Shown here piece by piece: positions 12,281 to 30,747 of a stretch of DNA of 64,000 nt (the stretch's first letter is position 1; each line of letters opens with the position of its first letter). A model generated the notes under the pieces. The model saw nothing but the letters and a program-made list of their open reading frames with translations. It was not told the origin of the DNA and searched no databases. The translations under genes and the position numbers were made by a program. Location of the stretch: the NCBI GenBank assembly GCA_034437355.1, contig DAOTUA010000179.1, positions 1,790-65,789 of the forward strand. The letters run 5' to 3'. This DNA is from Anaerolineae bacterium. GTDB taxonomy: Bacteria; Chloroflexota; Anaerolineae; Aggregatilineales; Phototrophicaceae.

Positions 12281-13560
12281 TTCGTATACGCCATAAACAC
12301 CGCAATATAAAGCGGGATCAAACAAGCCACTGCCACAAATGCCAAAAAAGCTAATACAATAGTAACAGCATCTAACCCGCCGCCCGCATCAATGCCTTCA
12401 GTAGCATTAGCGGCCCGTTGTCGGCGCACATCCGGCGGCGGGACCATCCCCCCAGTTGCGCTAGCATTGGGCATCTGCGCGGCTGATGTCGCCGCCGGCA
12501 CACTCGCCCGGCCCACGGGCGACGGCGCATCCGGCACAACGTTATACCGTTGCGTCGGGTCTGCTGGTGGTTGCTCCGGCTCGCGGTATAAAGGCCGCCC
12601 CTGTTGTGGCGGGTTGGCCCCCGGACGTTGGAAGCGTGCATCCGGCGCGGGGATAGACGCCCCCGGCTGCGGCGCGTCCGGCTCCGGTGATGTTTGCTTG
12701 CCAAATACACGCGGGTTCGGTGCGGTGTGCTGTTGCGCCTTATCACGGTACTTCACCAAAATCTGCCCAAGCTGGTCCGCCATACGATACCGCCCCGCCG
12801 GTTCCTTACCCATCACCTTGTAGATAATGCGCGATAGCTCGTCCGGTACTTGCGGGTTAATATCCGACACACGCGGGATGTCGTCGCGAATGTGTGCAAT
12901 CGCCAACTCCTGTTGATTATTACCAGTATATGGCAGTTGCCCCGTCAACATCTCAAACATCACAATGCCAATCGAATATACATCCGACGATGGCGTTGGC
13001 TTCTCGCCGCGTGCTTGCTCTGGCGCGAAATAGTGCGGGCTACCCCACACCACCGCCTCGCGTTCGGCGGTCACATCCGCTTTAGAAAACGCCTGCGCGA
13101 TGCCAAAATCCGTCACTTTCACCTGCCGGCTAGACGTGAGCAGCACGTTCTGCGGCTTCACGTCCGCATGGACCAACCCGGCCCGATGCGCTAGGCCGAT
13201 CCCCGCGCAAATCTGAATCCCCAGGTCCACCGCCACATCGACCGGAACTTTTGTCTCTTTGCGGATTAACTTCTTCAAATCGGACCCGTCGATAAACTCC
13301 ATCACAATGTAATGCGTGTTGCCGTCGCTGCCCACATCATACACCGTCACAATGTTCGGGTGGCTCAAATTTGCTACGTTGCGTGCCTCATTTTTGAACC
13401 GCTTCAGAAATTCCGGGTCGTTCGTCAGGCTAGGGCGTAAAATCTTCACCGCCACGGTACGCCCAAGCTCCTGATCGACCGCTTTGTAGATGACAGCCAT
13501 CCCGCCAGACCCCTGTTGGGCTACCAGCCGATAGCGCCCATTTAACATCGTTTCGCTCAT
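12277..13560 (-). CDS. Ser/Thr protein kinase (non-RD type), Pro-rich linker, C-terminal TM anchor
   Basis: 427-aa ORF with GSGGMAVIY, VAVK, HADVKPQNVL, DFGIA and APE motifs. The C-terminal segment is hydrophobic (VTIVLAFLAFVAVACLIPLYIAVFMAY). Confidence 0.85.
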   Translation of the reverse strand: MSETMLNGRYRLVAQQGSGGMAVIYKAVDQELGRTVAVKILRPSLTNDPEFLKRFKNEARNVANLSHPNIVTVYDVGSDGNTHYIVMEFIDGSDLKKLIRKETKVPVDVAVDLGIQICAGIGLAHRAGLVHADVKPQNVLLTSSRQVKVTDFGIAQAFSKADVTAEREAVVWGSPHYFAPEQARGEKPTPSSDVYSIGIVMFEMLTGQLPYTGNNQQELAIAHIRDDIPRVSDINPQVPDELSRIIYKVMGKEPAGRYRMADQLGQILVKYRDKAQQHTAPNPRVFGKQTSPEPDAPQPGASIPAPDARFQRPGANPPQQGRPLYREPEQPPADPTQRYNVVPDAPSPVGRASVPAATSAAQMPNASATGGMVPPPDVRRQRAANATEGIDAGGGLDAVTIVLAFLAFVAVACLIPLYIAVFMAYTN

Positions 13561-17575: not shown

Positions 17576-18883
17576 CTACTCCGTTAGTAACTCGGCTTGA
17601 GCCTCATCATCTGGGGGTATTAATTCCGTGATGACGGGCATATCCGCCCCGTTCAAAAACGCCAACGCGCTTTGAAGTTGCGGGTCGCCCGCCAGTGATT
17701 GCGCATCCGCAATATCCAGGATATACGGTTCCTCCGGGTTCCACTCGATCACAATATCCGGCTCGATGCCCTGCTCATGAATCCACGATCCATTCGGGGT
17801 CAGCCAACGCGCAATCGTGATCCGCATACCGCCGCCATTGCTCAGGCCGCGCCAGCTTTGCACCGTCCCCTTACCGAACGTCGTTTCTCCGATAATCGTT
17901 GCCGCACCGTGATCCTGTAACGCCCCGGATACCAACTCCGACGCACTCGCGCTCGTCTCATCTACCAGCACCACCACCGGGAAATCGTACCCCATGTAGC
18001 TGTCATCAGTACGCAGTTCCTCGTTACGATTGGCGAACTCCTCCCGCACGATCACCTTATCATCCAGAAACGCGCTGCTCACCTCAAGCGAGCTATTCAG
18101 CGTGCCGCCGGGGTTCCCCCGTAAATCCAGGATCAACCCGTTCAGTGTCGCCTCGCCGCGCATCTCATCAATCGCCGCTTCTAGTTGCGGGCGGCTCTGC
18201 GAATTGAACTCGAACAACCGCACCAGCCCAATATCCCCCTCTAACAGCACATGCTCTGCCGTCGGAATCGGAATCCGATCACGCTCTATCGTCTTGTCGA
18301 GCAACTCATCCCCGCGCCGGAACGTAATATCCACCGTAGACCCACGCGGGCCCCGCACAATCCCGGCTAGCTCTAACTGGCTGTAACCGATCACGTCCTC
18401 GCCGTCCACCTCCACGAAAATATCCCCCACCATCACCTCGGATTTCTCCGCCGGCGTATCCTTCAGCACGTTTACCACTTCGATCTCGCCCGTCTCCTGA
18501 ATCGTGCGGATCACCACACCGATCCCTTGAATCTCACCGGAAATATCCTCGTTCATCAGGCTGTAAACGTCACTCGCCATATAACCCGTGTACTGATCGC
18601 CCAGCGAATCCAACATCCCGCTGATGGCCCCCTCAACCACCAGATGCGTATCCACCGGTTCCAGATATTGCGAACGAATCATCCCATACGCCTGCCAGAA
18701 GGCGTCGAACTCCTGTTGTTCCTCCTCACTCAAGTTGATCTGTGCGGCTGCCAGCCCAGACTGGCTCCCGAACAAAAACCCGGTTGAGAATACCACTACA
18801 ATCAGGGCGACCGTCCGCATCCCCTGTGAGTGCTTCCATAGCTTTTTCCACATACCGATTGTCGATCTTGGCTGTTTCGACAT
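17576..18883 (-). CDS. S41-family C-terminal processing peptidase with PDZ domain
   Basis: 435-aa ORF with an N-terminal TM segment, a PDZ-like region, and S41 motifs LDLRGNPGGTL and TASASELVSGALQD. Its stop lies 2 nt before the murA start, so the two are likely co-transcribed. Confidence 0.9.
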   Translation of the reverse strand: MSKQPRSTIGMWKKLWKHSQGMRTVALIVVVFSTGFLFGSQSGLAAAQINLSEEEQQEFDAFWQAYGMIRSQYLEPVDTHLVVEGAISGMLDSLGDQYTGYMASDVYSLMNEDISGEIQGIGVVIRTIQETGEIEVVNVLKDTPAEKSEVMVGDIFVEVDGEDVIGYSQLELAGIVRGPRGSTVDITFRRGDELLDKTIERDRIPIPTAEHVLLEGDIGLVRLFEFNSQSRPQLEAAIDEMRGEATLNGLILDLRGNPGGTLNSSLEVSSAFLDDKVIVREEFANRNEELRTDDSYMGYDFPVVVLVDETSASASELVSGALQDHGAATIIGETTFGKGTVQSWRGLSNGGGMRITIARWLTPNGSWIHEQGIEPDIVIEWNPEEPYILDIADAQSLAGDPQLQSALAFLNGADMPVITELIPPDDEAQAELLTE

Positions 18884-19014
18884 GGGATATACTCCACTTA
18901 TGTACTTGAACTTATACTATTATACATACTCTAGCGCATTTGCTTTGGTAAAATGTGCATGGCATGTTAGAAGCCCAAAAGTATCCTCGCCCATCCCCTA
19001 ACGGAGTGACCCAC

Positions 19015-19941
19015 ATGACCCAACACCAAGCCCAAGCTCTGCTCTTTGGCCTCGCCCTCGGTGATGCGCTCGGTTGGCCCACCGAATTCAAAACCCTACC
19101 GGACATCAAAGCCACCTACGGCCCCGATGGTATCCAACAACCACCGGACCCCGCCCTCTACACCGACGATACCCAGATGACGCTCGCTCTGACCGAGGGC
19201 CTGCTAGAAACCGGCCTCAACGCCCCGCTAGATGACCAGATGCAAGCCGTTGGGCGTCACTTTGTCCGATGGAAGCATACCGCCCCCTCCCGCGCCCCTG
19301 GCAATACCTGCCTCACCGGGGTCACACGCTTTGAAAACGGCACCCCCTGGGCCGAATCCGGCGTCGCTCACTCTAAGGGATGCGGTAGCGCCATGCGCGT
19401 TGCGACTATCGGCTATCTTTACCAACACACACCGGACCGCCTGGTCGAAGTGGCGAAAGCTAGCGGGATTATCACCCATGGCCACCCGGCAGCCGTAGCC
19501 GCCTCCGTTGCCGCCGCCTACGCCGTTAAGCTCGCCCTGGATGGCATCCACCCCGACGACTACCTACGCCGCATCCTGGCAATCACCGACGGCATCAGCG
19601 AGGAGTTCGACGCCGCCATGTATCGTGTCGGCCAAGCGCATTTCGCCTCAGACGAACAATGCCTCAAGCATATCGGGCAAGGGTGGGTCGGGGAAGAAGC
19701 CGTCGGGCTGGCCCTCTGGTGTGTGATCCGCTTCCCGGATGATTACGTCGCTGCTGTGCGCCGGGGCGCGAACTCCAACGGGGATAGCGATAGCGTCGCC
19801 TGTATTGCCGGCGGCATCAGCGCCGCCCGCCTCGGCCTACACGCTATCCCCGAACCCTGGCGGGCACGTTGCGAAAACCGCGACTATCTGCTAGACTTAT
19901 CCGAACGAATGTTCAAAGCACGCGAGGCCATCAACCCATGA
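19015..19941 (+). CDS. ADP-ribosylglycohydrolase family protein
   Basis: LLFGLALGDALGWPTEF, GCGSAMRVA and a C-terminal GDSDSVACIAGG are typical ARH/DraG-family motifs. I prefer ATG 19015 (GGAG upstream) to the track start at 18955. Confidence 0.8.
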   Translation: MTQHQAQALLFGLALGDALGWPTEFKTLPDIKATYGPDGIQQPPDPALYTDDTQMTLALTEGLLETGLNAPLDDQMQAVGRHFVRWKHTAPSRAPGNTCLTGVTRFENGTPWAESGVAHSKGCGSAMRVATIGYLYQHTPDRLVEVAKASGIITHGHPAAVAASVAAAYAVKLALDGIHPDDYLRRILAITDGISEEFDAAMYRVGQAHFASDEQCLKHIGQGWVGEEAVGLALWCVIRFPDDYVAAVRRGANSNGDSDSVACIAGGISAARLGLHAIPEPWRARCENRDYLLDLSERMFKAREAINP

Positions 19942-20297
19942 CACGCGACGATGTGATCGCCTATTGTCTAGCTAAGCGCGGGGCCTACACCGATACCCCC
20001 TTCGGACCCGACACACTCGTCATCAAAGTTCTCAATAAGATGTTCGCCGCACTCAGCACCGACCCCACCGTCGAAACGGTTAACCTCAAATGCGAACCCG
20101 ATCACGCCCTCATCCTGCGCAACGCCTACCCCGATCACGTCCAGCCGGGGTATCATATGAATAAAAAACACTGGAACACAGTCACTTTTACCCAGGTGCC
20201 GGACGACGAACTGCGCGACTGGATCAGCGAATCCTACGATCTCGTCGTCGCCAGCATGACCAAAGCCGACCGTACCCGGCTACAAACCGACGACTGA
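19938..20297 (+). CDS. MmcQ/YjbR-family DNA-binding protein
   Basis: The internal ATG overlaps the upstream stop codon (ATGA at 19938-19941). The PGYHMNKKHWNTV signature and ~119-aa size match the YjbR family. Confidence 0.8.
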   Translation: MTRDDVIAYCLAKRGAYTDTPFGPDTLVIKVLNKMFAALSTDPTVETVNLKCEPDHALILRNAYPDHVQPGYHMNKKHWNTVTFTQVPDDELRDWISESYDLVVASMTKADRTRLQTDD

Positions 20298-20321
20298 CCA
20301 TCAACCGAATGACAAGCCACC

Positions 20322-22889
20322 ATGCCCAATCCCGATCTCATCTACCTAGATGATCTGACCATCAACTTCGCCAGCTATCGCTTACTCCGTGACGGCCAAC
20401 CGATCCGCCTCACCCCGACCGAATGGTCCCTGCTACGCGAGTTAACCCAACATCCCAACCAGGTCCTTACCCACCGTACCCTACTCAAACGTGTATGGGG
20501 CGAAGAATACGAAACCGAACTCGACTACGTGCATACCTACGTCAGCCGCCTACGCCGCAAACTAGAGCCGGACCCCTCCAACCCGATGTACATCCTCACC
20601 GAAGCCGGGATCGGCTATCGCTTTAACGGCCATACCATCGCCCCGAACCCCCAACCGGCCCCCACCACCGAAACCGCCCAACCCGCCACCCCGCCGCGCT
20701 ATATCAATCCCCTGCCGCAACTCGTCGGTGAACGCTACGTCGGGCGACAAACCCAACGCGAATACGTCCGCGACCTGCTCACCGACGGCGCACGCATGGT
20801 CAGCCTGTACGGGCGGGCCGGCGTCGGCAAGACCGCGCTCGCCTGTCGTGTCATCACTGACCTACAAACCACCGATCACTTCGACGGTATGGTCTTTCTC
20901 AGCGCCACCAGCACCGGCATCACCCTGGGCCGCATCCTCAGCGACTTTAACCGCCTGCTCGACGACGCGCCCCTCCCGGACCATCAACAGGCTGTTTACC
21001 GCATCACTCACCTGTTAGATCGGCTGCAAAACGGGCGCTACCTGCTGCTGCTAGACAACCTCGAACACCTGCAAAACCCCCTCACCAACGACCTGACCGA
21101 CAAAGATATGGAAATCTTCTTTAAGGTGGTATTAGAACAAGGCGGCGGGCTGCGCATCCTCGCCACCAGCCGCTACCCCCTTAACCTGCCGCGCAGCGTC
21201 AAAATGTGGGAGCGTGTCGTTTCGCTCGAACAAGGGCTGCACCTCACCGATGGGATCGCACTTCTGCGCCAGTCCGACCCAGACGGGCACGCCGGCCTCG
21301 CCAACGCCCCCGCCGAAATTCTCTCGCAGCTTGTCGCCCGCACACACGGCCTGCCGCGTGCGCTAGAAGCCATCGTCGGCATCCTGCTAGAATCCCCGTT
21401 GATGTCCCCCGCCGATCTGCTCAACGACACCGCCCTACTTGCCGATGAGATCGGCGAAATGTTCATCCAGGGCGTAATCGACACACTCCCCGCCGATGCC
21501 GTCCGGGTGATGGAACTTGTCTCGATGTTCCGCCGCGCTGTGCCCCTCCCGCTGCTAGAAGCCTTCACCGCCCCCCACCTGCAACCCGGCACACTCAAAC
21601 CCGTTCTGAACCGTCTCGTTCGGGCCTACTTCCTCACCTACAGCCCATCCGACGAGCGCGTTTCTATGCACCCGCTAGACCGCGCCTATTGTTATGGTCG
21701 CATCCCCACCGATGATCGCCGCCAGTATCACAACCAAATTGCGGACCTATACGCCGCTACCTTTGTCGATGACGGGCGCGTGACCAACATTGCCGATCTC
21801 AGCGTCCCGCTAGCCGCCTTTCAACACCGCGTACTCGCCGCTAAGTACGACCAGGCCGCCACCCTACTATTAGAACTTGACCGCGAATATCTATCCATAT
21901 GGGGCAACCACGCCGAACTTGCCGACAACTACGCCCAGGTCGCCCCCCACATCCACGACCCACGCCTACAACGCGACGCCACGCTACGCTACGGCGAAGC
22001 CCTCCGGCGTATCGGCAAACTACACGACGCCATCCACGCCTTCGAGCAGGTCAACCACAACGCCGCCGCCGCCAACGACCGTCACAGCCAGGCTGACGCC
22101 CAACGTAGCCTCGGTTGGGCCTACTACGATACCGGGCAGTTCCCGCGCTCCATCGACTACTGGAAGCAGGCCCTCGACGTATTCCAACAAATCGGCGATC
22201 ACTACCGCATGGGGGACTTGCTCAGCGGCATGGGCTGGGTATCCTACCTGATGGGCGCTTACGATGAGGCGCTCCACTACCTCCAACAGTCGTTTCTCAT
22301 CTTTGGCGAGATCGGCGATCAGCTTCACCGTATCGGCGTAAATATCGGTGATTCTGGCATGATCCGCGCCGCACAAGGCCACTACACCCAGGCTATCCGC
22401 AACCTGCGCGAATCGCTCTCGATTGCCGAGGTCACCAACGCGATCAACGAAAAAAGCTACAAAGGCGGCTATCTGGCCGTCGTCTTGTTGCTGGATGGTC
22501 AATTCGACCAGGCCGAAGCCGCCGCCCGCACCGCCGTTCAATACGATGTCCCCGCCAACCGTCACTTTGTCGCCGCCGTCCACGGGATCGCCCTCGCACG
22601 CCTCAACCGCACCGACGAAGCGATTCAGGCGTTTGAAGACGCCCTGCGCTATGCCGATAGTATTCTGCGGTTTACATCCGGCCTATACCATGCCCGTTAC
22701 GCCCACGCGCTCGCGTTAGCAGGGCTGGCCCTGCTGCGGGCGGATGATCTCATCCCCGCCGTTGAGGATTACGGCGCGGCCCTCGCCATGTGCGCCACCG
22801 CCGGCGTGATCGAACTCAACTTGAACCTGCTTAAAACACTAGACCCCGATCACAAACTCGACGGCGTGCGCTCGCTGCTGACCGGCTGA
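20322..22889 (+). CDS. multidomain regulator: OmpR/PhoB-type winged-helix DNA-binding domain (no receiver), NB-ARC/STAND P-loop NTPase, TPR repeats
   Basis: 855-aa ORF. The N-terminus is a Trans_reg_C-like domain (LTPTEWSLLRELTQHPNQVLTHRTLLKRVWG...YVSRLRRKLE...GIGYRF). Walker A is GRAGVGKTALA and Walker B is LLLLDNLEH. The C-terminal half has TPR-like repeats (GWAYYDTGQF..., GWVSYLMGAYDEAL...). Confidence 0.75.
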   Translation: MPNPDLIYLDDLTINFASYRLLRDGQPIRLTPTEWSLLRELTQHPNQVLTHRTLLKRVWGEEYETELDYVHTYVSRLRRKLEPDPSNPMYILTEAGIGYRFNGHTIAPNPQPAPTTETAQPATPPRYINPLPQLVGERYVGRQTQREYVRDLLTDGARMVSLYGRAGVGKTALACRVITDLQTTDHFDGMVFLSATSTGITLGRILSDFNRLLDDAPLPDHQQAVYRITHLLDRLQNGRYLLLLDNLEHLQNPLTNDLTDKDMEIFFKVVLEQGGGLRILATSRYPLNLPRSVKMWERVVSLEQGLHLTDGIALLRQSDPDGHAGLANAPAEILSQLVARTHGLPRALEAIVGILLESPLMSPADLLNDTALLADEIGEMFIQGVIDTLPADAVRVMELVSMFRRAVPLPLLEAFTAPHLQPGTLKPVLNRLVRAYFLTYSPSDERVSMHPLDRAYCYGRIPTDDRRQYHNQIADLYAATFVDDGRVTNIADLSVPLAAFQHRVLAAKYDQAATLLLELDREYLSIWGNHAELADNYAQVAPHIHDPRLQRDATLRYGEALRRIGKLHDAIHAFEQVNHNAAAANDRHSQADAQRSLGWAYYDTGQFPRSIDYWKQALDVFQQIGDHYRMGDLLSGMGWVSYLMGAYDEALHYLQQSFLIFGEIGDQLHRIGVNIGDSGMIRAAQGHYTQAIRNLRESLSIAEVTNAINEKSYKGGYLAVVLLLDGQFDQAEAAARTAVQYDVPANRHFVAAVHGIALARLNRTDEAIQAFEDALRYADSILRFTSGLYHARYAHALALAGLALLRADDLIPAVEDYGAALAMCATAGVIELNLNLLKTLDPDHKLDGVRSLLTG

Positions 22890-22890
22890 A

Positions 22891-24132
22891 TCAGGGCGCA
22901 GTCACGGCAAACAAACACTTCAGATACACCCCTTCCGCAAACGTTACCGGATGATCCAGCGCGTGCCCCGTCCGTTCAATCTCACGCAGTGGATAGGCGC
23001 TCGCCTGTTGCACGGTTCGGAAAAAATCATCCGCCGTTACCCGGCTGCTGCACGACGCCATCACAAGCTGCCCACCAGGGCGCAAAAGCTCCGTTGCTAA
23101 CCCCGCTAACCGACGATACGCACGCAACGCACCATCCGCTTCTGATGCTTGCTTGGCAAACGCGGGCGGGTCCACGATCACCATATCAAACCGCCGTCCC
23201 TCTCCGGCCATCCCCGCCATCGCCTCGAACGCATCCGCCGCGAGCATGTCATGGGTTGCTGCCGTTACGTTCGGATGATCCGCATTTAACGCCATATTGT
23301 GCCGCGCCGCCGCCAACGCCGGCCCCGATATATCCAGGCTGGTGACATGGGCCGCACCCCCTGCCGCCGCATACACCGAAAATCCGCCCGTATACGCGAA
23401 CACGTCCAGCACCTCCGCTTTACCAGCGGCAAGCTCGCCTACCCGTGAACGGTTCTCGCGCTGGTCGAAGAAAAACCCGGTCTTATGCCCATCAAGTACA
23501 TCGGCAGCAAACCACAGCCCGTTTTCCCGGAACCGGATCGGTCCCTCCGGCGGCGGCCCGTACAACGTCTGGCCATCCCACAGCCCGAACGTTTCTCCCT
23601 CCGCCACCTGACGGCTTAACCGTAGGACCAGCCGTTCCGCCCCAACCGTATCTACCAACACCGGTAGCAGGTCGCCCAGATGCGGCAACCACGCCGCACT
23701 ATACAGCTTCATCACCAATGTGCCGGCATACCGATCCACAATCAAAGCGGGCAACCCATCATTAGCCCCATACACCAACCGGTACCCCGTTGTCAGCGCC
23801 GCCCCTAACCCCGCCCGACGCGCTGCCGCCGCTTGTAATACCCCCGCAAACCAATCGCGGTTGATCTGCGCTGGCGTGTGATGTTGTAGCACCCGCACCC
23901 GGATCGGTGAATGCGGATCATATAACCCCACCCCCAAAAACCGATCACGATAATCGAAAACAACCGCCAACGTCCCCGCCGCCGCCCCCGTATAATTCGC
24001 ATCCGTGATCGCATCCTCAAACAACCACGGATGGCCCGCTTTCAGGGCGCGTTCCGCTGCCGGCTTGACGTGCAGCGCCAACCGACGCGCGTTTGCTGGC
24101 GGGATGTTCATCAGATGCTCGTGAAATGTCAT
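22891..24132 (-). CDS. class I SAM-dependent rRNA methyltransferase, RlmI-like (PUA-like N-terminus plus methyltransferase domain)
   Basis: 413-aa ORF with LDVFAYTGGFSVYAA (SAM motif I-like) and VIVDPPAFAK (motif IV). The length and order fit the RlmI/YccW family. Confidence 0.75.
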   Translation of the reverse strand: MTFHEHLMNIPPANARRLALHVKPAAERALKAGHPWLFEDAITDANYTGAAAGTLAVVFDYRDRFLGVGLYDPHSPIRVRVLQHHTPAQINRDWFAGVLQAAAARRAGLGAALTTGYRLVYGANDGLPALIVDRYAGTLVMKLYSAAWLPHLGDLLPVLVDTVGAERLVLRLSRQVAEGETFGLWDGQTLYGPPPEGPIRFRENGLWFAADVLDGHKTGFFFDQRENRSRVGELAAGKAEVLDVFAYTGGFSVYAAAGGAAHVTSLDISGPALAAARHNMALNADHPNVTAATHDMLAADAFEAMAGMAGEGRRFDMVIVDPPAFAKQASEADGALRAYRRLAGLATELLRPGGQLVMASCSSRVTADDFFRTVQQASAYPLREIERTGHALDHPVTFAEGVYLKCLFAVTAP

Positions 24133-24165
24133 GGGTGCTGCTCCATCAAATCGAAATAGACGGTC

Positions 24166-26580
24166 TCAAGGCCCGCGCCGTACCGATGTCGTCACAATCA
24201 CTTCTATTTCCGCCACAAACTGATACAACCCATCCATATACGCTTGTAGATAATCCGTCACCACCAACCGCGCCAACGCCACATGCCCCGCCTCTACCAA
24301 CGCCAACACCGGCTCCCGGAAATCCCGCACCGTAATCACCATCTGATCCCGATCATCCGTCATTATGCCCCACACCAGAATTTTTTTGTCGTTATCATCC
24401 TTCGCGCTCGAAAACCGCCGCACCGATGACCCTGTTACCACCCGCCCTACGTTGCTAAATACCTCCTCCCCCTTAATCGCCTCATTGACCACCGTCAACT
24501 GCCCCGGAATACTATCCATAACCTGTTGCATCGCTTTTGGTAGCCCCGCAATTAACCGAATCGCCGTCGTCCCCATACTTTCCCCCCGCGTGGCGATCTC
24601 CCGATACCGTTCCATCAACGCCCCAAACGCCTGCAAATAACCTAAATACGCCTCGCGCTCATCCAAAAATGCCCGGATCACCTCGCGATCCGGCGCACCG
24701 TTTGCTTTCGGTTGACGCGCCAACTCGCGGAGCGCCACCAGCTTCTCATGCTCTCCCCGGAAATCCGGCAGCGGGCTACGAAAGGTACTTGGAAAGACCC
24801 GTTCTTTCGGATCGTAGCGTGTCGCATCAATCGGAATCAGCAGTGATGGGTTTTGCTCCCGTTGCGCCCGGAACATCCCTTCCAGGTCTTTCACCAACTC
24901 CGCGCCACCCGGATGCCCCGCTAATGCCACGAACCGATCTCGGACCGCATTTCCGGGCGTATACCCCGCATTGAAGATCGTCCGGTACAACACCAACAAG
25001 TCATTGACCGTCAACCGTAACCCCGTCCGCGCCTTGAGCGTTGTTCGCAAACGCTGTATCGGCTCGATCTCCCCCCGGGTTTCCGCACTCACACCCGGCC
25101 TAGCCACCTCATAGCGTGCCGCCGTCGCCCGTAGCCTATCCGACGCCGCCAGCCTCAACGGGGCTGTTGGGGTCGCCTCCGGTTGTGGGCCAGCCATGCC
25201 ACACACAATATGCAGATACTTGCTCGCCTCGTTGGTGAGCATCTCCGCCACGGCCAAACTCCACGGACCATCAAAGAAAATGTGCGAAAAGTCAAACACC
25301 GTACTTTCACCCGTGCGCAAAATCGTCAGCGCGTGATCACCGATCCCACGTTGCCCCTGCCGGATCACCGGCAACGGCACATCCGCCGGGCGCTCATCCC
25401 AGTTGATCAGAATCGGGGCCTTACGCAGCCTCTCTAAATCGTGCCGCTGTTGCTTATCCAAGGTCGCCCGCAAACGCAGTTGCGCACTGCGCGGCGCTGT
25501 CGTCAGTATCTCTGTCGCCCCGGCTCCCAGCACGCGCCCCCCCTCTAATATTCCCCGCACCTGCCCGATCAATCTGCGCACCGCCTCCACCGACCCCAGC
25601 GCCGGCACTGCTAGCAGGTAATACGCCCCCCGGTAAATTATGCCGATCTGTAGCTCATCCGCCTCCAACGGATAACGTTCATCCCCATATTCCCCTGGTT
25701 CTAGCTGTCGATGAATCGACATCTGCCGCACATACGCCCGCTGCCGCCGTCCTCGTGCCTCCTGGTTTTCCGGGTCATACCACACCCCCGCGAACGCTTC
25801 CCACTGCGGTTTAGATACCTGCGATAAATAGTAATCACAAAATTGGTCGAATACCGCCTCACGTGCCACCACCAACCCCGTTTTGACATCTGGCGCGGCA
25901 AATGGCTGTATCCGTTGCCATTCCTGATAAAGCCCGGTTAACCCTGTCGTCTCCTCGATCACCCGTAACCGGACGCTCTCGGCCCATCTTAGTTCCAATA
26001 AGCGATGATAATCACGCAGCATCGCCGCGCACGCCATCACCCATGCCGCCAGTTGTAAAACCGGATCATCTCCCCCCGCCACTTTGCCCCACACCCGTTG
26101 GAACCCCACCGTTTCCGTCTGATGATGGGCCGCATCCTCTCGTAAACCGAACTCAACGTAAAACTGCCAGGCCCCTTCCGGCAGATAGTCCGCCGGATCG
26201 TTGCCGGCTAGCTCTAACAGCATATTATAGCCCGCCAATACAGTTGCCGGGCCAGTAAACGCCATATGATACAACATATTGTTGCGCATCAAAGACAGCC
26301 CCTTAAACAGCGCGTTCACATGCGAACGCCCTGTCGCCGTCTTATCCCCCTTACGCGCACTCAACAACCCGCTAAACACAAAGTTGACCACGTTCCCCGC
26401 CGGGATCACTTGCGCGATCTCATCGATCAACTCATTACGCTCCGCAACCGATAGCATAGACACCGCTGGATCTGTGGTGTCATCCTGTTGTGCTAATAAG
26501 TTGCGGATACTGTCCGTCGTTAGCCGGGTCGCCCGTGCCATCTCCTGATGGTCATCGGCAGAGGGCATCTTCTGAGCCAT
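24166..26580 (-). CDS. hypothetical protein, 804 aa, no recognisable family
   Basis: A long ORF with coding-like composition. It sits 9 nt downstream of the preceding membrane-protein gene and 33 nt upstream of the methyltransferase gene. I see no TM segments, P-loop, HExxH or other motif I can name. Confidence 0.7.
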   Translation of the reverse strand: MAQKMPSADDHQEMARATRLTTDSIRNLLAQQDDTTDPAVSMLSVAERNELIDEIAQVIPAGNVVNFVFSGLLSARKGDKTATGRSHVNALFKGLSLMRNNMLYHMAFTGPATVLAGYNMLLELAGNDPADYLPEGAWQFYVEFGLREDAAHHQTETVGFQRVWGKVAGGDDPVLQLAAWVMACAAMLRDYHRLLELRWAESVRLRVIEETTGLTGLYQEWQRIQPFAAPDVKTGLVVAREAVFDQFCDYYLSQVSKPQWEAFAGVWYDPENQEARGRRQRAYVRQMSIHRQLEPGEYGDERYPLEADELQIGIIYRGAYYLLAVPALGSVEAVRRLIGQVRGILEGGRVLGAGATEILTTAPRSAQLRLRATLDKQQRHDLERLRKAPILINWDERPADVPLPVIRQGQRGIGDHALTILRTGESTVFDFSHIFFDGPWSLAVAEMLTNEASKYLHIVCGMAGPQPEATPTAPLRLAASDRLRATAARYEVARPGVSAETRGEIEPIQRLRTTLKARTGLRLTVNDLLVLYRTIFNAGYTPGNAVRDRFVALAGHPGGAELVKDLEGMFRAQREQNPSLLIPIDATRYDPKERVFPSTFRSPLPDFRGEHEKLVALRELARQPKANGAPDREVIRAFLDEREAYLGYLQAFGALMERYREIATRGESMGTTAIRLIAGLPKAMQQVMDSIPGQLTVVNEAIKGEEVFSNVGRVVTGSSVRRFSSAKDDNDKKILVWGIMTDDRDQMVITVRDFREPVLALVEAGHVALARLVVTDYLQAYMDGLYQFVAEIEVIVTTSVRRGP

Positions 26581-26589
26581 CCCAACAAT

Positions 26590-26949
26590 TTACAAGCCAG
26601 ACGACCGCGCATCCTCCTCGGTCCACCCGGCCTGGGCTTTCCGAGCTAAGGCCGCATCGCGTGCCGGGCGCTCAATCCGAGCGAACAAAAACGCGCTACC
26701 ATACATCACCGCCGATAACCCTAACGCCGTCAGCAGCCCGTAGCCCAAGCGCATCCAGCCCGCCTCGGGCGACGTGATCACTACCGCGGTCACCGTCACC
26801 GGCAGCGCCGCGACCGCACTCGCACTCATGTAATGCAATACCCGCGCTACACTACCGCCGTAAACCGGGTCCCGGCGATGCGAACTACGCTCGACAAAAA
26901 AACCCGCTACCAGCCCAAATACCACACCGATCACAATTGTTATTATCAT
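26590..26949 (-). CDS. small integral membrane protein (119 aa, about 3 TM segments)
   Basis: It has hydrophobic segments IITIVIGVVFGLVAGFFV, AVAALPVTVTAVVI and LGYGLLTALGLSAVMYGSAFLF. It starts 2 nt after the stop of the DUF5989-like ORF. Confidence 0.6.
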   Translation of the reverse strand: MIITIVIGVVFGLVAGFFVERSSHRRDPVYGGSVARVLHYMSASAVAALPVTVTAVVITSPEAGWMRLGYGLLTALGLSAVMYGSAFLFARIERPARDAALARKAQAGWTEEDARSSGL

Positions 26950-26951
26950 CG

Positions 26952-27122
26952 TTAAAACAACGTGTAGATAAATGGTGCGGTCGTTGGACTAGAGCCGAAC
27001 AAAATCGCAGCTCCAAAAACAGTCAATACCAGAATCATCGGTATCAACCAATATAGCTTACGCTCCCATAAAAACTGGAGCAGTTCGCCTACTATCCCAA
27101 GCCTTGCGAAAAACTCATTCAT
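26952..27122 (-). CDS. DUF5989-like (SxtK-like) small membrane protein, 56 aa; below the ORF-track length cutoff
   Basis: My translation of the minus strand from ATG 27122-27120 to TAA 26954-26952 is MNEFFARLGIVGELLQFLWERKLYWLIPMILVLTVFGAAILFGSSPTTAPFIYTLF. The single TM segment and the C-terminal APFIYTLF ending match what I remember of the small proteins encoded next to this type of carbamoyltransferase. It lies 16 nt downstream of the carbamoyltransferase stop. Confidence 0.65.
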   Translation of the reverse strand: MNEFFARLGIVGELLQFLWERKLYWLIPMILVLTVFGAAILFGSSPTTAPFIYTLF

Positions 27123-27138
27123 GCTAGCATTAGCTCCT

Positions 27139-28929
27139 TTATTTATCTTTACGCACCAAGAAAGACCCCAGCGCGAGTATATCTATATCGCTGTTCTGAA
27201 ATGTGTTCCACGCATCACGCGGCGTATTCACAATTGGCTCGCCCCGCAAATTGAACGACGTATTCAAAACAACCGGAACGCCTGTTTCTGCTGCAAAGCG
27301 TTCTATCACACCATAATATCTGAGATTCGTCTCCCGTTCAATTGCTTGTAACCGGCCCGTCCCTTCATGATCTACCGCCTCGATCTCCCCCCGCTTCTCC
27401 TCACGGATCGGGGCCACCATCAACATATAACGCGGGGCCTCATGTTCCTGCACCTTGGGGTAGTCGAAATACTCCAAGGCCCGATCTCGCAACACCACCG
27501 GCGCAAACGGTCGGAACGGCTCGCGATACTTGATCTTTGTGTTGACCACATCCTTCATTTCCGCGCTGCGCGGGTCCGCTAAAATACTCCGATTCCCCAA
27601 CGCACGCGGCCCCCACTCAAACCGCCCCTGGAAAAACCCAACAATCTGCTGCTGAGTCATATCCTGCGCCAGTACATCCAACATCTTATCAATATTATCG
27701 TCGTAACGCTCATACTTGGCCCCAACCCCATCCAAAAAATCCCGACAGGCCGCGTCACTATAAGCCGCCCCCCAATACGCATGGGGCATCACCCAGTTTC
27801 GCGGTTTCCCCAACACCATATGATACGCCCACAACGCCGCCCCCAGCGCCCCGCCATCGTCCCCTGCCGCCGGCTGGATGTAAATCTCCTCGAAAGGCGT
27901 TTCATTCAACAGCCGCCAATTCGCCTTCGTATTAAGCGCCACCCCGCCCGCCATCACTACCTTGGCCTGGCCCGTCTTGGCGTGCAGGTGATTCAATATG
28001 TCGATCAGTGCATCTTCCGTCACCTGCTGGATGCTTGCCGCGACATCCGCGTAATACTGATTGCGCTCCATCAGCGCCTTCTCCCCGGACCGTTCCGGGT
28101 TGGTTTTCATCGTGAAGAACTCCAGGTCCGGCGGGCGGTTCTCTCCGAATAACTCAACGAACTTCTGGCTATAACTGCGCGTGCTGCTATGCTGGAACGC
28201 GAAATAATCCAAGTCTAGCTGATAACTCCCACCCGCCCCACGCCGGAACACCTGCCGCACCTTATCAACATAGCGCGGCTCGCCGTAAGGCGTCATTCCC
28301 ATCACCTTATACTCACCGTTATTGACCCGAAAGCCCAACCACGCCGTAAATGTTGAGTACAACAACCCGATACTGTGCGGGAAACGCTGCTCCTCAAACA
28401 ACTCGATCTTGTTCTCGCCGTTTATATCCCCCTCCCAATAGCTGCTCGCCGTCCCTAATGTCGTGGTCGTCCACTCGCCCACACCATCCACCGTCAACAC
28501 CGCCGCTTCTTTGAACGGGCTGGCAAAAAAGGCACTCGCCGCATGGCTCATATGATGATCGCAGAACAACACCCGATCATACGGTATATCCGTCTGCTTC
28601 TGGATGATCGTCTTGACCCACAACTTCTCGTTTAACCACGCCACCAACGCACCACGCCACACATTCACCGACTGCGGGAACGTATTCAACGTCGTTAACA
28701 AAATACGCTCGAACTTCACCAGCGGCTTCTCGTAAAACACCACATAATCCACATCCTGCTTGCGGATACCCGCCTGTGCCAAACAAAACGCTATTGCCTG
28801 CTGCGGGAACGAATTATCGTGCTTTTTCCGCGAAAACCGTTCTTCCATAGACGCCGCCACCAGCACCCCATCTTTGAGCAACGCCGCCGCCGAATCGTGA
28901 TAAAAACAAGAAATACCCAGGATATACAT
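27139..28929 (-). CDS. NodU/CmcH-family carbamoyltransferase
   Basis: MYILGISCFYHDSAAALLKDGVLVAASMEERFSRKKHD is the typical N-terminus of this family, and the ~596-aa length fits. The track start at 28935 is TTG, so I prefer ATG 28929. Confidence 0.9.
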   Translation of the reverse strand: MYILGISCFYHDSAAALLKDGVLVAASMEERFSRKKHDNSFPQQAIAFCLAQAGIRKQDVDYVVFYEKPLVKFERILLTTLNTFPQSVNVWRGALVAWLNEKLWVKTIIQKQTDIPYDRVLFCDHHMSHAASAFFASPFKEAAVLTVDGVGEWTTTTLGTASSYWEGDINGENKIELFEEQRFPHSIGLLYSTFTAWLGFRVNNGEYKVMGMTPYGEPRYVDKVRQVFRRGAGGSYQLDLDYFAFQHSSTRSYSQKFVELFGENRPPDLEFFTMKTNPERSGEKALMERNQYYADVAASIQQVTEDALIDILNHLHAKTGQAKVVMAGGVALNTKANWRLLNETPFEEIYIQPAAGDDGGALGAALWAYHMVLGKPRNWVMPHAYWGAAYSDAACRDFLDGVGAKYERYDDNIDKMLDVLAQDMTQQQIVGFFQGRFEWGPRALGNRSILADPRSAEMKDVVNTKIKYREPFRPFAPVVLRDRALEYFDYPKVQEHEAPRYMLMVAPIREEKRGEIEAVDHEGTGRLQAIERETNLRYYGVIERFAAETGVPVVLNTSFNLRGEPIVNTPRDAWNTFQNSDIDILALGSFLVRKDK

Positions 28930-28935
28930 ATTCAA

Positions 28936-29169
28936 TTACCCCTGACGCCGCGCACGGTCAATTTCCGTAGATACCGGTTCGCGTGTTAACCACGATGGCT
29001 CATCTCTCGCCCGACGCTGTAGCGGGTCAGTCGCAAAAGTAGAAATCAGCGCAAATGGCACCAAAAATGTGAAATAAAAGACGACAGCTAACAAACTACC
29101 GACCGCTTCACCAACAATCAACGTGATCGTCTGCAATCGTTCTCTAGCCAATTGAAACGTTTCGCCCAA
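28936..29169 (-). CDS. small membrane protein, possibly SxtJ-like
   Basis: 77-codon ORF with a TTG start that ends immediately before the carbamoyltransferase gene. It has one or two TM segments, and the FLVPFALISTFATDPLQRR segment resembles the conserved xPxxLxxxxxxDPLxR region I associate with SxtJ-family proteins. This is weak. Confidence 0.4.
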   Translation of the reverse strand: MGETFQLARERLQTITLIVGEAVGSLLAVVFYFTFLVPFALISTFATDPLQRRARDEPSWLTREPVSTEIDRARRQG

Positions 29170-29334
29170 AGCTCACATCTCCCATTCACCACCTTTTACT
29201 AAGCCAGCATATCATAGGCGATCCCCTCATGAAAACAAGGTCCGTTCGCCCATACCAACCGCTTGTGCTTGTCAAACACCCCCCACGGATATAGAATACT
29301 CGCACCAACAGACCAATAGCTTTTGGGGTAGTAT

Positions 29335-29658
29335 ATGTCTCAAATAGAAGAATTTGATCGCAAAATCCGTGTAAAACGCCTGGAAAAAGTAGAACCCCAT
29401 CTCAAACAATATGCGCCCGTATGGATCATCAACGAAGAACTGATCCCAGAAGATAGCTCGATCATGTTCAACGTGCTATTCCAACACCATCTCTACGGAT
29501 GGGTCAACCGTCGCTATAAATACGATGGCTTTAACAACGTCCTCTACCACAAAGGCCAAACTGAAATGGACGAGGACGACGCCCTCGACATCATCGAAGC
29601 CCAAACTCCCTTCATCCCCGCCGGTATCTCCGACACGCGCAACGCCTACGGCGGCTAA
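29335..29658 (+). CDS. hypothetical protein, 107 aa
   Basis: An isolated ORF with ordinary coding composition (MSQIEEFDRKIRVKRLEKVEPHLKQYAPVWIINEE...). I recognise no family. Confidence 0.5.
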   Translation: MSQIEEFDRKIRVKRLEKVEPHLKQYAPVWIINEELIPEDSSIMFNVLFQHHLYGWVNRRYKYDGFNNVLYHKGQTEMDEDDALDIIEAQTPFIPAGISDTRNAYGG

Positions 29659-29685
29659 CGGGGGCCGCCGCCCGCGATCTTCAGC

Positions 29686-30747
29686 CTATAGCGCCGCCAA
29701 CACCGCCGATGCGAATTCGTCCGTACTCACATACGCCCCGCCCTTCGGCGCAATATCCGCCGTCCGCAGGCCATCAGCCAATACCCGATCCACCGCCGCC
29801 TCGACCGCCGCCGCTGCCTGCTCTAGCTGCAAACTGTAGCGTAACAGCATCGCCGCACTCAAGATCATCGCGGTCGGGTTCGCCTTGCCCGCCCCCGCAA
29901 TATCCGGCGCAGACCCATGAATCGGCTCGTATAACCCAAACGTCCCCGTCCCAATCGACGCCGACGGCAACATCCCCAAAGACCCCGCCAACACGCTCGC
30001 CTCATCGCTCAGGATGTCCCCAAACATATTCCCCGCCAACACCACATCAAAATCGCCGGGACGTGTGAGCATGTGCATTGTCGCCGCATCCACCAGCAAA
30101 TGCTCCAACTCCACATCGGCGTAATCCTCATGCACCTCCACCACGGACCGCCGCCATAACCGCATCGCCGCCAGCACATTCGCCTTATCCACCGACGTTA
30201 ACTTGCCACGCCGCCCCTGTGCCGCCCGGAACGCGATATTCGCCACCCGTTCGACCTCCCCCCGCGAATAATACATCGTGTCATACGCATGATCCCCGTC
30301 CCCCTGTTCCTGCCGTTCCCCAAAATAAATCCCGCCGGTCAGTTCCCGTACAAACAGCATATCCACATTCGCCAACAGGTCCGGGCGTAACGGCGCATGT
30401 TCCGCTAGCGCCGGGTACGCTTTCACCGGGCGCAAATTCGCAAACAACCCGAAGTGCTGCCGAATTTTCAGTAACCCCTGTTCTGGCCGGACCGGGGCAG
30501 TCGGGTCGCTCCATTGCGGTCCCCCCACCGCCCCCAATAACACAGCATCCGCCCCCTCACACAGCGCAATTGTCGCCGCCGGCAACGGGTCCCCCGTCCG
30601 ATCAATCGCAATCCCCCCGATTAACCCTTCCTCAAATGTGAACGTATGCCCGAACTTCGCCGCAACCGCCCGCAAGACCTCAACCGCCTTCGCCGTCACC
30701 TCCGGCCCGATGCCGTCCCCCGGCAAAACTGCTATCTTCGCATCCAT
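29686..30747 (-). CDS. leuB: 3-isopropylmalate dehydrogenase
   Basis: 353-aa [34 protein letters not shown] and GSAPDIAG are IPMDH signatures. Confidence 0.95.

What the first reader, a model, noticed from the sequence alone, without database searches (positions are those of the whole stretch)
24166..26949. 804-aa protein with no recognisable family, co-packed with the carbamoyltransferase module
**Operon structure**
Immediately downstream of the triad lie a 119-aa polytopic membrane protein, then an 804-aa soluble-looking protein, then an RlmI-like methyltransferase. The gaps are 2 nt, 9 nt and 33 nt. This spacing argues for one transcript of six genes.

**The 804-aa protein**
I cannot place it in any family. 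It has no P-loop, no metal-binding motif that I recognise, no TM segment and no repeats. Yet it has clean coding composition over 2.4 kb.

A large uncharacterised protein hard-wired to a conserved module of unknown function is the best candidate in this window for a genuinely undescribed system.
Basis: inference. Interest (0 to 1): 0.62.

Follow-up and report, generated by a model that had tools for sequence, protein, structure and literature searches.

The report
Divergent carnitine-type acyltransferase, Chloroflexota family
The 804-residue 'orphan' protein is a real, conserved gene that turns out to be a very divergent, enlarged bacterial relative of the carnitine/choline acyltransferases, and its position next to the carbamoyltransferase genes is local gene order in one lineage rather than a hard-wired new system.

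Summary
The protein is not family-less.

- **Fold:** a confident AlphaFold model (pLDDT 83, pTM 0.84) has choline/carnitine acyltransferases as its 22 best PDB matches (Foldseek E 1e-11 to 4e-8).
- **Sequence:** relatives 48-58% identical pass the Pfam PF00755 cut-off. A family profile aligns the invariant motif SHIFFDG (His433, Asp437) onto the catalytic FEHSWGDG (His372, Asp376) of CPT2.
- **Distribution:** about 800 aa, found in about 480 species genomes; every named hit is Chloroflexota.

The most likely function is an acyl-CoA-dependent acyltransferase with an unknown acceptor.

The link to the SxtJ-like/carbamoyltransferase/DUF5989/119-aa module is synteny within one clade.
- It is directly adjacent only in the window's genus and two further genera.
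- An opposite-strand gene intervenes in other sister genera.
- At least seven sister genera keep the module intact without this gene.
- Other orders carry the gene without the module (co-occurrence p = 0.36).
- The RlmI-like neighbour is specific to this species.

In the largest clade the gene is instead translationally coupled to a Hanks Ser/Thr kinase. Interest is modest: an uncharacterised variant of a known enzyme fold.

The parts
24166..26580 (-). 804-aa protein 'X': an enlarged, divergent protein with the choline/carnitine-acyltransferase fold (the alternative start at Met5 gives the 800-aa public gene call)
   Evidence: ORF. Homologues. AF2 model with pLDDT 83.4 and pTM 0.84. Foldseek best 22 hits are ChAT, CrOT, CrAT and CPT2, E 1.4e-11 to 4.3e-8. 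Pfam PF00755 is passed by homologues.
25267..25350 (-). Catalytic-core motif RGIGDHALTILRTGESTVFDFSHIFFDG (residues 411-438); predicted general base His433, with Asp437 and Gly438
   Evidence: Translation. S432, H433, F436 and D437 are invariant in 36 sequences. HMMER aligns FdlSHifFDg with INFEHSWGDG of CPT2, and DhaLT with DKSFS. The CPT2 motif was verified in PDB chain 2deb_A. In the model a strand (427-432) is followed by a helix (438-460).
26101..26181 (-). Family-specific, near-invariant N-terminal motif PEGxWQFYVEFGLREDxxxHxxETxGF (residues 134-160); role unknown
   Evidence: Translation. Invariant columns W138, Q139, F140, Y141, L146, R147, E148, D149, H153, E156, T157 and F160. No counterpart was identified in CPT2.
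24316..24474 (-). Conserved C-lobe block KGxEVFSNVG...RFxSAKDDNxKK..WGIMTD...LRDFR (residues 703-755); candidate acceptor/CoA-site strands
   Evidence: Translation. Invariant K703, G704, E706-N710, R722, F723, D728, D729, K733, W737, R752, D753 and R755. Predicted beta-strands at 706-713, 720-724, 735-741 and 746-753. Not alignable to CPT2 by sequence.
26590..26949 (-). 119-aa polytopic membrane protein; a fourth conserved member of the carbamoyltransferase module, not a partner of X
   Evidence: It follows DUF5989/CT in genomes with and without X (cluster c6/TM119). No Pfam family.
26952..27122 (-). 56-aa DUF5989 small membrane protein
   Evidence: Pfam PF19451, E 4.1e-18.
27139..28935 (-). 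NodU/CmcH-type carbamoyltransferase, 598 aa
   Evidence: PF02543 (E 7e-83) plus PF16861 (E 5e-65).
28936..29169 (-). 77-aa small membrane protein in the SxtJ position upstream of the carbamoyltransferase
   Evidence: ORF. Conserved cluster c13 in the same position in relatives. No Pfam or NCBIfam hit here, so the 'SxtJ-like' label rests on position only.
29335..29658 (+). 107-aa conserved gene divergent from the carbamoyltransferase unit (cluster c3)
   Evidence: Found in the same divergent position in many relatives. No Pfam family.
22891..24132 (-). RlmI-like 23S rRNA m5C methyltransferase (PUA plus SAM-methyltransferase domains), 33 nt downstream of X; this adjacency is species-specific
   Evidence: PF10672 and PF17785. 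NF033380 Rlm_2499C5, E 2e-134, below its cut-off. In the five congeners with the downstream flank assembled the downstream genes are an opposite-strand Pyr_redox_2 gene and, where the contig continues, purH.

Best explanation
The 804-aa protein is a soluble enzyme with the two-lobed fold of the choline/carnitine acyltransferases (the CoA-dependent acyltransferase superfamily).

**Proposed mechanism.** It most likely uses His433 as general base, held by Asp437 in the motif SHIFFDG, to move an acyl group from an acyl-CoA onto a hydroxyl (or amine) group of an acceptor. The acceptor is not yet known and is probably not carnitine.

**Family.** It belongs to a family of about 800 residues that appears restricted to Chloroflexota. 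The family carries roughly 150-200 extra, mostly helical residues and its own invariant motifs.

**Relation to the neighbours.** It is an independent gene. In the window's genus it has come to lie directly behind the four-gene carbamoyltransferase module (SxtJ-like, CT, DUF5989, 119-aa membrane protein) and is probably co-transcribed with it there. It is not a component of that module.

**Shown versus inferred.**
- Shown: the fold, the homology, conservation and alignment of the catalytic motif, and the phyletic and synteny pattern.
- Inferred: enzymatic activity, CoA dependence and acceptor class.
For: **Fold.** The AF2 model has pLDDT 83.4 and pTM 0.84. Foldseek against the PDB puts only ChAT, CrOT, CrAT and CPT2 in ranks 1-22 (E 1.4e-11 to 4.3e-8, target TM 0.47-0.59). 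NRPS C/E domains and WS/DGAT follow only at E about 1e-5 to 1e-4.

**Sequence.**
- Five of 36 family members, plus two further close homologues scanned separately, pass the Pfam PF00755 cut-off of 22.3 bits (25-32 bits, profile positions 132-371).
- The family profile scores positive against nearly all 197 CPT2 sequences tested. It aligns H433/D437/G438 with CPT2 His372/Asp376/Gly377, and D415-H416 with D353-K354.
- hhalign gives the same register for residues 280-400 (E 0.0024).

**Conservation.** S432, H433, F436 and D437 are invariant.

**Established knowledge.** The catalytic histidine sits at the interface of the N and C domains in CrAT and ChAT (PMC11852590).

**Independence from the module.**
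- Synteny and co-occurrence tallies.
- Single-clade origin of the adjacency.
- The module is intact without X in L134, L135, L136, L138, L142, L143 and L145.
Against: - The window protein itself gives no Pfam, NCBIfam or PDB sequence hit.
- Profile-profile probability against CPT2 is only 12%.
- The C-lobe, which holds the acceptor and CoA sites, could not be aligned, so substrate class is untested.
- No structural superposition at residue level was available.
- No expression or biochemical data exist.
- The 0-9 nt gap to the 119-aa gene in all six species of the genus, together with retention of the c3-to-X block while both flanks changed in this species, leaves some room for a local functional link with the module.
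Confidence: 0.65

Rival explanations
1. X is a functional component of a larger system built around the SxtJ-like/carbamoyltransferase/DUF5989/119-aa module. It could be a second tailoring enzyme that O-acylates the same sugar, lipid or metabolite that the carbamoyltransferase carbamoylates, possibly together with the Acetyltransf_6 and GT4 genes that lie upstream in relatives.
For: - Tight packing: 0-9 nt between the 119-aa gene and X in the window and five congeners.
- Adjacency or near-adjacency in 15 of 19 members of the window's clade.
- In this species both flanks were rearranged, but the c3-to-X block stayed together.
- A second clade keeps Acetyltransf_6-GT4-c3 upstream of X, with a GH-like 644-aa protein in place of the carbamoyltransferase module.
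- An acyltransferase is chemically compatible with a tailoring cluster.
Against: - At least seven sister genera have the intact module at the same site without X.
- In most genera of the clade an opposite-strand Pyr_redox_2 gene separates X from the module, and X is instead followed at 21-106 nt by purH.
- X occurs without the carbamoyltransferase in G016, G039, G048 and G051, and on other contigs in all other orders.
- Co-occurrence counts are 26/5/22/8, p = 0.36.
- Most of the family (clade IV) is linked to a kinase instead.
Confidence: 0.12
2. X is primarily a signalling-linked enzyme. The family's ancestral partner is a Hanks-type Ser/Thr kinase that phosphorylates and controls the acyltransferase, or is controlled by its product. 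The window's clade has lost that linkage but retains the same biochemical role.
For: - A Ser/Thr kinase is the immediately downstream same-strand gene in 25 of 80 species-level loci, with a 4-nt start/stop overlap in 13.
- Kinases make up only about 1% of genes, 22-62 per genome.
- The association needs at least 5 independent changes on the tree, and no label shuffle matches it.
- Kinase architectures and positions vary: upstream FGE-sulfatase fusions in L047-L049 and a double kinase in L046.
Against: - No kinase lies next to X in the window or anywhere in its clade; the nearest kinases are 11-13 kb away.
- The link is concentrated in one large clade, so it is partly inherited.
- There is no evidence of phosphorylation.
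- Adjacency does not say which partner acts on which.
Confidence: 0.15
3. X is a non-catalytic scaffold or binding protein that merely retains the acyltransferase fold (a pseudoenzyme).
For: - Large helical additions relative to the roughly 600-aa enzymes.
- The canonical N-terminal and C-lobe signatures of the carnitine acyltransferases were not recognisable by sequence.
Against: - His433 and Asp437 are invariant and Gly438 is usual, with the same spacing to the upstream D-[HK] motif as in CPT2.
- 75 invariant columns, many of them charged, argue for a conserved active site.
Confidence: 0.05

Closest known systems
Choline/carnitine O-acyltransferases (Pfam PF00755: CrAT, CrOT, CPT1/2, ChAT; e.g. 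PDB 2fy4, 1xl7, 1ndb, 2deb)
   Same: - Two-lobed fold; these enzymes fill the 22 best structural matches.
- Homologous N-lobe strands ('RKGHFYVFDV' against 'YRGAYYLLAV') and the catalytic segment D-[KH]...x-H-x-x-x-D-G, with His433 aligned to His372 of CPT2.
- Close homologues pass the Pfam cut-off.
   Different: - About 800 rather than about 600-660 residues.
- Only about 10-13% identity in the structural alignments.
- The window protein is below detection for the Pfam model.
- It has its own invariant motifs (WQFYVEFGLRED; KGxEVFSNVG...AKDDN).
- Carnitine/choline-binding residues could not be identified.
- It is bacterial and appears restricted to Chloroflexota; no substrate is known.
NRPS condensation/epimerization domains and WS/DGAT wax-ester synthases (HHxxxDG acyltransferases)
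   Same: Same superfamily fold and the same HxxxDG catalytic logic. They are weaker structural matches (E 4e-5 to 5e-4).
   Different: - Much poorer structural match than the carnitine acyltransferases.
- No second His before the catalytic His (the motif is S-H, not H-H).
- No carrier-protein or adenylation domains in the protein or its neighbours.
sxtI-sxtJ-sxtK-type trio (O-carbamoyltransferase with two small membrane proteins), the neighbouring module
   Same: The neighbouring genes match this arrangement: carbamoyltransferase plus DUF5989, plus a small upstream membrane protein.
   Different: X is not part of that trio in any described cluster. Here the trio, plus the 119-aa protein, persists without X in sister genera.

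Membership tests
Choline/carnitine O-acyltransferase family (Pfam PF00755) | Sequence scores above the Pfam gathering threshold (22.3 bits) | tested here: not met
   The window protein gives no hit at E <= 1, and a six-frame search of its own genome finds none. Homologues P0002, P0004, P0008, P0012, P0014 and P0016 (48-58% identical) score 25.5-32.4 bits over profile positions 132-371. Only 5 of 36 family members pass.
Choline/carnitine O-acyltransferase family (Pfam PF00755) | Two-domain (N and C lobe) acyltransferase fold | tested here: met
   The confident AF2 model has ChAT, CrOT, CrAT and CPT2 as Foldseek ranks 1-22: probability 1.00, E 1.4e-11 to 4.3e-8, TM (target-normalised) 0.47-0.59.
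Choline/carnitine O-acyltransferase family (Pfam PF00755) | Catalytic His in an [DE]-H-x(3)-[DE]-G segment following a beta-strand, about 19-22 residues after the R-x-x-D-K motif | tested here: met
   S-H433-I-F-F-D437-G438 is invariant. HMMER aligns it column for column with E-H372-S-W-G-D376-G of CPT2, and D415-H416 with D353-K354. The CPT2 motif was verified in 2deb_A. In the model, strand 427-432 is followed by helix 438-460. The residue before His is Ser, not Asp/Glu.
Choline/carnitine O-acyltransferase family (Pfam PF00755) | Carnitine/choline-binding residues of the C lobe (from memory of Jogl & Tong 2003: CrAT Tyr452, Ser454, Thr465, Arg518 and the S-T-S motif; in CPT2 Y486, S488, T499, R554 and S588-T589-S590, which are invariant in alignment A2) | tested here: inconclusive
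   The C lobe could not be aligned by hhalign or HMMER. The Foldseek tool returns no residue alignment. No S-T-S motif is present in the conserved C-lobe blocks.
Choline/carnitine O-acyltransferase family (Pfam PF00755) | Acyl-CoA:carnitine or choline transferase activity | not testable with these tools
   This needs an enzyme assay.
Carbamoyltransferase / SxtJ / DUF5989 module (as a component) | Co-occurrence and conserved adjacency with the carbamoyltransferase across lineages | tested here: not met
   - Among 61 relatives: both genes in 26, X only in 5, carbamoyltransferase only in 22, neither in 8; Fisher p = 0.36.
- Adjacency occurs in only one clade.
- The module is intact without X in at least 7 genera.
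Known anti-phage defence or phage protein families | Match to a PADLOC or PHROGs model | tested here: not met
   No PADLOC hit. The only PHROGs match is sub-significant (E 0.0045).

The most novel reading that the evidence does not exclude
X founds a Chloroflexota-wide family of enlarged enzymes with the carnitine-acyltransferase fold. These enzymes would have abandoned carnitine or choline for a different, lineage-specific acceptor. In the family's largest clade they are translationally coupled to Hanks Ser/Thr kinases. That would be a kinase-controlled acyl-transfer module with no described counterpart. In the window's clade the same enzyme has been re-wired next to a carbamoyltransferase and glycan-tailoring block.
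Probability: 0.3. Interest if true: 0.55.

Novelty: new variant of a known kind. Interest (0 to 1): 0.35.

Why it matters
Carnitine/choline acyltransferases are thought of as essentially eukaryotic enzymes. A family found in hundreds of Chloroflexota species keeps their catalytic core but differs in three ways:
- it is a third longer;
- most members are missed by Pfam;
- in its largest clade it is coupled to Ser/Thr kinases.

That makes it a defined target for finding a new acyl acceptor in a poorly studied phylum.

For this scan the practical result is corrective. The 'best candidate for an undescribed system' is a recognisable enzyme fold, and its link to the carbamoyltransferase module is lineage-local gene order. 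The module itself is better described as four genes, including the 119-aa membrane protein, without this protein.

Tried and rejected
**Searches that led nowhere**
- Direct Pfam, NCBIfam, PDB-sequence, PADLOC and PHROGs searches of the window protein found nothing useful.
- A profile of the family against PDB sequences gave only noise. The hits were stonustoxin, ECF sigma region 2 and tryptophan dioxygenase, E 0.2-1.3; I treat the sigma-like hits as chance.
- A PF00755 search of the window's own genome gave no hit.

**Aligning to the carnitine acyltransferases**
- To get a residue-level alignment I fetched CPT2 sequences with an X-padded query built from a motif verified in the PDB.
- hhalign of the family against a vertebrate CPT2 alignment was weak (E 0.0024, probability 12%) and stopped before the catalytic motif.
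- Global mode failed.
- A permissive local mode shifted the His motif by 4 residues at zero confidence. I rejected that register in favour of the HMMER alignment.
- The last large homologue search, meant to broaden the carnitine-acyltransferase profile, returned only vertebrate CPT2 among its 120 listed hits (plus one arachnid sequence) and added nothing.
- The reverse CPT2-profile search showed that only the CPT2 ~245-435 region is detectable, so acceptor-site residues could not be mapped.

**Other checks**
- GC and GC3 do not separate X from the carbamoyltransferase gene (0.65 against 0.67), so there is no compositional argument for separate origin.
- Literature searches found no paper on this family or on DUF5989/SxtJ modules outside saxitoxin clusters.
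Full report
**1. Observation**

The minus strand of 22.9-29.2 kb carries six co-directional genes:
- a 77-aa small membrane protein (28936-29169);
- a NodU/CmcH-type carbamoyltransferase (27139-28935; PF02543 plus PF16861);
- a 56-aa DUF5989 protein (26952-27122; PF19451, E 4e-18);
- a 119-aa polytopic membrane protein (26590-26949);
- the 804-aa ORF (24166-26580);
- an RlmI-like m5C rRNA methyltransferase (22891-24132).

The intergenic gaps are 0, 16, 2, 9 and 33 nt. No terminator-like hairpin lies in a gap.

The 804-aa protein has no P-loop, no segment hydrophobic enough to span a membrane and no internal repeat. On its own it hits nothing in Pfam, NCBIfam or PDB sequences.

**2. The gene is real and belongs to a sizeable family**

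- A word-indexed search found more than 150 full-length relatives, 33-58% identical and about 790-880 aa.
- An exhaustive HMMER search of 1.84 billion cluster representatives found 207 clusters.
- A motif scan of one genome per species found relatives in 480 species. All named records are Chloroflexota: Anaerolineae, Aggregatilineales, Caldilinea aerophila, Herpetosiphonaceae, Brevefilum and Ca. Villigracilis.
- The distribution is patchy: 31 of 61 close relatives and 16 of 401 genomes sampled evenly across the phylum.
- A 36-sequence alignment has 75 invariant columns. They cluster in four blocks:
  - PEGxWQFYVEFGLREDxxxHxxET (residues 134-160);
  - RGIGDHALTIFRTxxSxVFDxSHIFFDG (411-438);
  - LTVNDLLxLYR (523-533);
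  - KGxEVFSNVG...RFxSAKDDNxKK..WGIMTD...LRDFR (703-755).

**3. What it is**

*Annotation and Pfam.* Some GenBank records for homologues are already named 'choline/carnitine O-acyltransferase'. Six homologues, 48-58% identical to the window protein, pass the Pfam PF00755 cut-off (25-32 bits against 22.3). The matches cover profile positions 132-371 of 574. Only 5 of the 36 aligned members pass.

*Structure.* An AlphaFold2 model built on the family alignment is confident: mean pLDDT 83.4, pTM 0.84. Foldseek against the PDB returns only choline acetyltransferase, carnitine octanoyl-, acetyl- and palmitoyl-transferases in ranks 1-22. These have probability 1.00, E 1.4e-11 to 4.3e-8, and target-normalised TM 0.47-0.59. 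NRPS condensation/epimerization domains and WS/DGAT follow at E about 1e-5 to 1e-4.

*Residue-level check.*
- I verified the CPT2 active-site sequence in the PDB: 2deb_A reads ...NRWFDKSF...AVHFEHSWGDGVAVLRF....
- I fetched CPT2 sequences.
- I then scored them with the family profile. HMMER aligns FdlSHifFDg with INFEHSWGDG. That gives His433 = His372, Asp437 = Asp376 and Gly438 = Gly377. It also aligns D415-H416 with D353-K354.
- hhalign independently aligns residues 280-400 with CPT2 207-333 (E 0.0024, probability only 12%).
- In the model His433 follows strand 427-432, and Asp437-Gly438 open helix 438-460. This is the expected topology.

The catalytic histidine at the N/C-domain interface is the defining catalytic feature of CrAT and ChAT (PMC11852590).

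*Limit.* The C lobe, which holds the acceptor and CoA sites, could not be aligned by sequence. Whether a carnitine- or choline-type pocket exists is therefore open. No S-T-S motif is visible in the conserved C-lobe blocks.

**4. Most likely mechanism**

- Shown: fold, homology, and an invariant, correctly aligned HxxxDG.
- Inferred: an acyl-CoA-dependent acyl transfer to a hydroxyl or amine acceptor, with His433 as general base. The many invariant Arg, Lys and Asp residues of the C lobe suggest a charged ligand such as CoA or an ionic acceptor.
- Unknown: the acceptor.

I put 0.9 on the fold and homology and about 0.6 on genuine acyltransferase activity.

**5. Relation to the carbamoyltransferase module**

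*Co-occurrence.* Among 61 relatives, both genes are present in 26, X only in 5, the carbamoyltransferase only in 22 and neither in 8. The odds ratio is 1.9, p = 0.36.

*Adjacency.*
- They are directly adjacent only in the window's genus (six species, gap from the 119-aa gene to X of 0-9 nt), in G023, and in a Phototrophicaceae genome (L061).
- In other genera of the same family an opposite-strand Pyr_redox_2 gene lies between the 119-aa gene and X. X is then followed at 21-106 nt by purH.
- In G027 the two genes are 24 kb apart. In all other orders they are on different contigs or 140 kb apart.

*Tree.* A maximum-likelihood tree of 80 family members places all module-adjacent copies in one clade with 100% support, 15 of 19 rows.

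*The decisive case.* At least seven sister genera that lack X keep SxtJ-like/CT/DUF5989/119-aa/[Pyr_redox_2]/purH at the same site (L134, L135, L136, L138, L142, L143, L145).

*Conclusions.*
- The 119-aa protein belongs to the module. X does not.
- The RlmI-like gene follows X only in this species. Where the downstream flank is assembled, the congeners have Pyr_redox_2 and then purH there.
- The upstream flank is likewise rearranged here: the leu operon replaces the Acetyltransf_6-GT4 pair seen in some congeners and sister genera.
- The c3-to-X block survived both rearrangements, and the gaps are tiny. Co-transcription in this genus is therefore plausible, and a local functional link cannot be excluded. 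I give it about 0.12.

**6. Other contexts of the family**

- *Clade II (8 rows).* Acetyltransf_6, GT4 and c3 lie upstream. A 580-676-aa protein with weak glycoside-hydrolase-like hits replaces the carbamoyltransferase module. purB overlaps or abuts X downstream.
- *Clade III.* FtsK and peptidase M1 lie upstream.
- *Clade IV (43 rows).* A Hanks Ser/Thr kinase is the immediately downstream same-strand gene in 25 rows. In 13 of these the start and stop codons overlap by 4 nt. Kinases are only about 1% of genes in these genomes. The tree needs at least five changes of this label, and no shuffle matches it.
- Genomes with two copies carry one copy of each type.

The kinase coupling is the strongest conserved association of the family, but it is absent from the window's clade.

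**7. Comparison with what is known, and novelty**

The protein works like, and is homologous to, the choline/carnitine acyltransferases. It fails the Pfam threshold itself, is a third longer, and has its own invariant motifs. No family member has been studied: no paper was found. Part of the family is already labelled by automatic annotation. I therefore class it as a new variant of a known kind, with modest interest (0.35).

Another first-stage note flagged a look-alike 800-aa 'domain-less' protein in a different genome. The same explanation probably applies there.

Noticed in passing
L099:5947-8415 and following gene; likewise L091, L101, L108, L109, L113, L114, L117, L119, L129-L132: In the largest clade of the family the X gene is followed on the same strand by a Hanks-type Ser/Thr kinase. 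This holds in 25 of 80 species-level loci, and in 13 of them the start and stop codons overlap by 4 nt. Kinase architectures vary, including upstream kinase-FGE-sulfatase fusions in L047-L049 and a double kinase in L046.
   Followed up: partly
L060:8404-..., L062, L063-L069 (purH); L088, L096, L097, L103, L118 (purB): In clades I and II the gene directly downstream of X on the same strand is a purine-biosynthesis gene. It is purH at 21-106 nt, or an adenylosuccinate-lyase gene overlapping or within 5 nt. This may be inherited synteny or a shared transcript; the meaning is unknown.
   Followed up: no
L096:4051-5985 (also L088, L103, L118, L126): A conserved 580-676-aa protein has only sub-threshold glycoside-hydrolase-like Pfam hits (GHL6, GHL15, Glyco_hydro_42M). 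It occupies the exact slot of the carbamoyltransferase module, between the c3 gene and X, downstream of Acetyltransf_6 and GT4.
   Followed up: partly
window 26590-26949 and 29335-29658: The carbamoyltransferase 'triad' is really a larger conserved unit. The 119-aa membrane protein follows DUF5989 in almost every relative, with or without X. A 107-aa protein with no Pfam family is conserved as a divergent upstream gene.
   Followed up: partly
window 18000-30000: GC skew on the plus strand is strongly negative throughout (-0.09 to -0.33 in 500-nt windows). This includes the plus-strand 855-aa STAND regulator gene (20322-22889), so it is not simply a coding-strand effect.
   Followed up: no
window about 10463-11230 (+) and 12778-13530 (-): Two Hanks-type protein kinase domains lie 11-13 kb from X in the window, out of 33 in the genome. 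They are not adjacent to X.
   Followed up: no
window 22891-24132: The RlmI-like methyltransferase scores best against the NCBIfam model for 23S rRNA C2499 m5C methyltransferase (448 bits), but this is below that model's 650-bit cut-off. Its target position is therefore uncertain.
   Followed up: no
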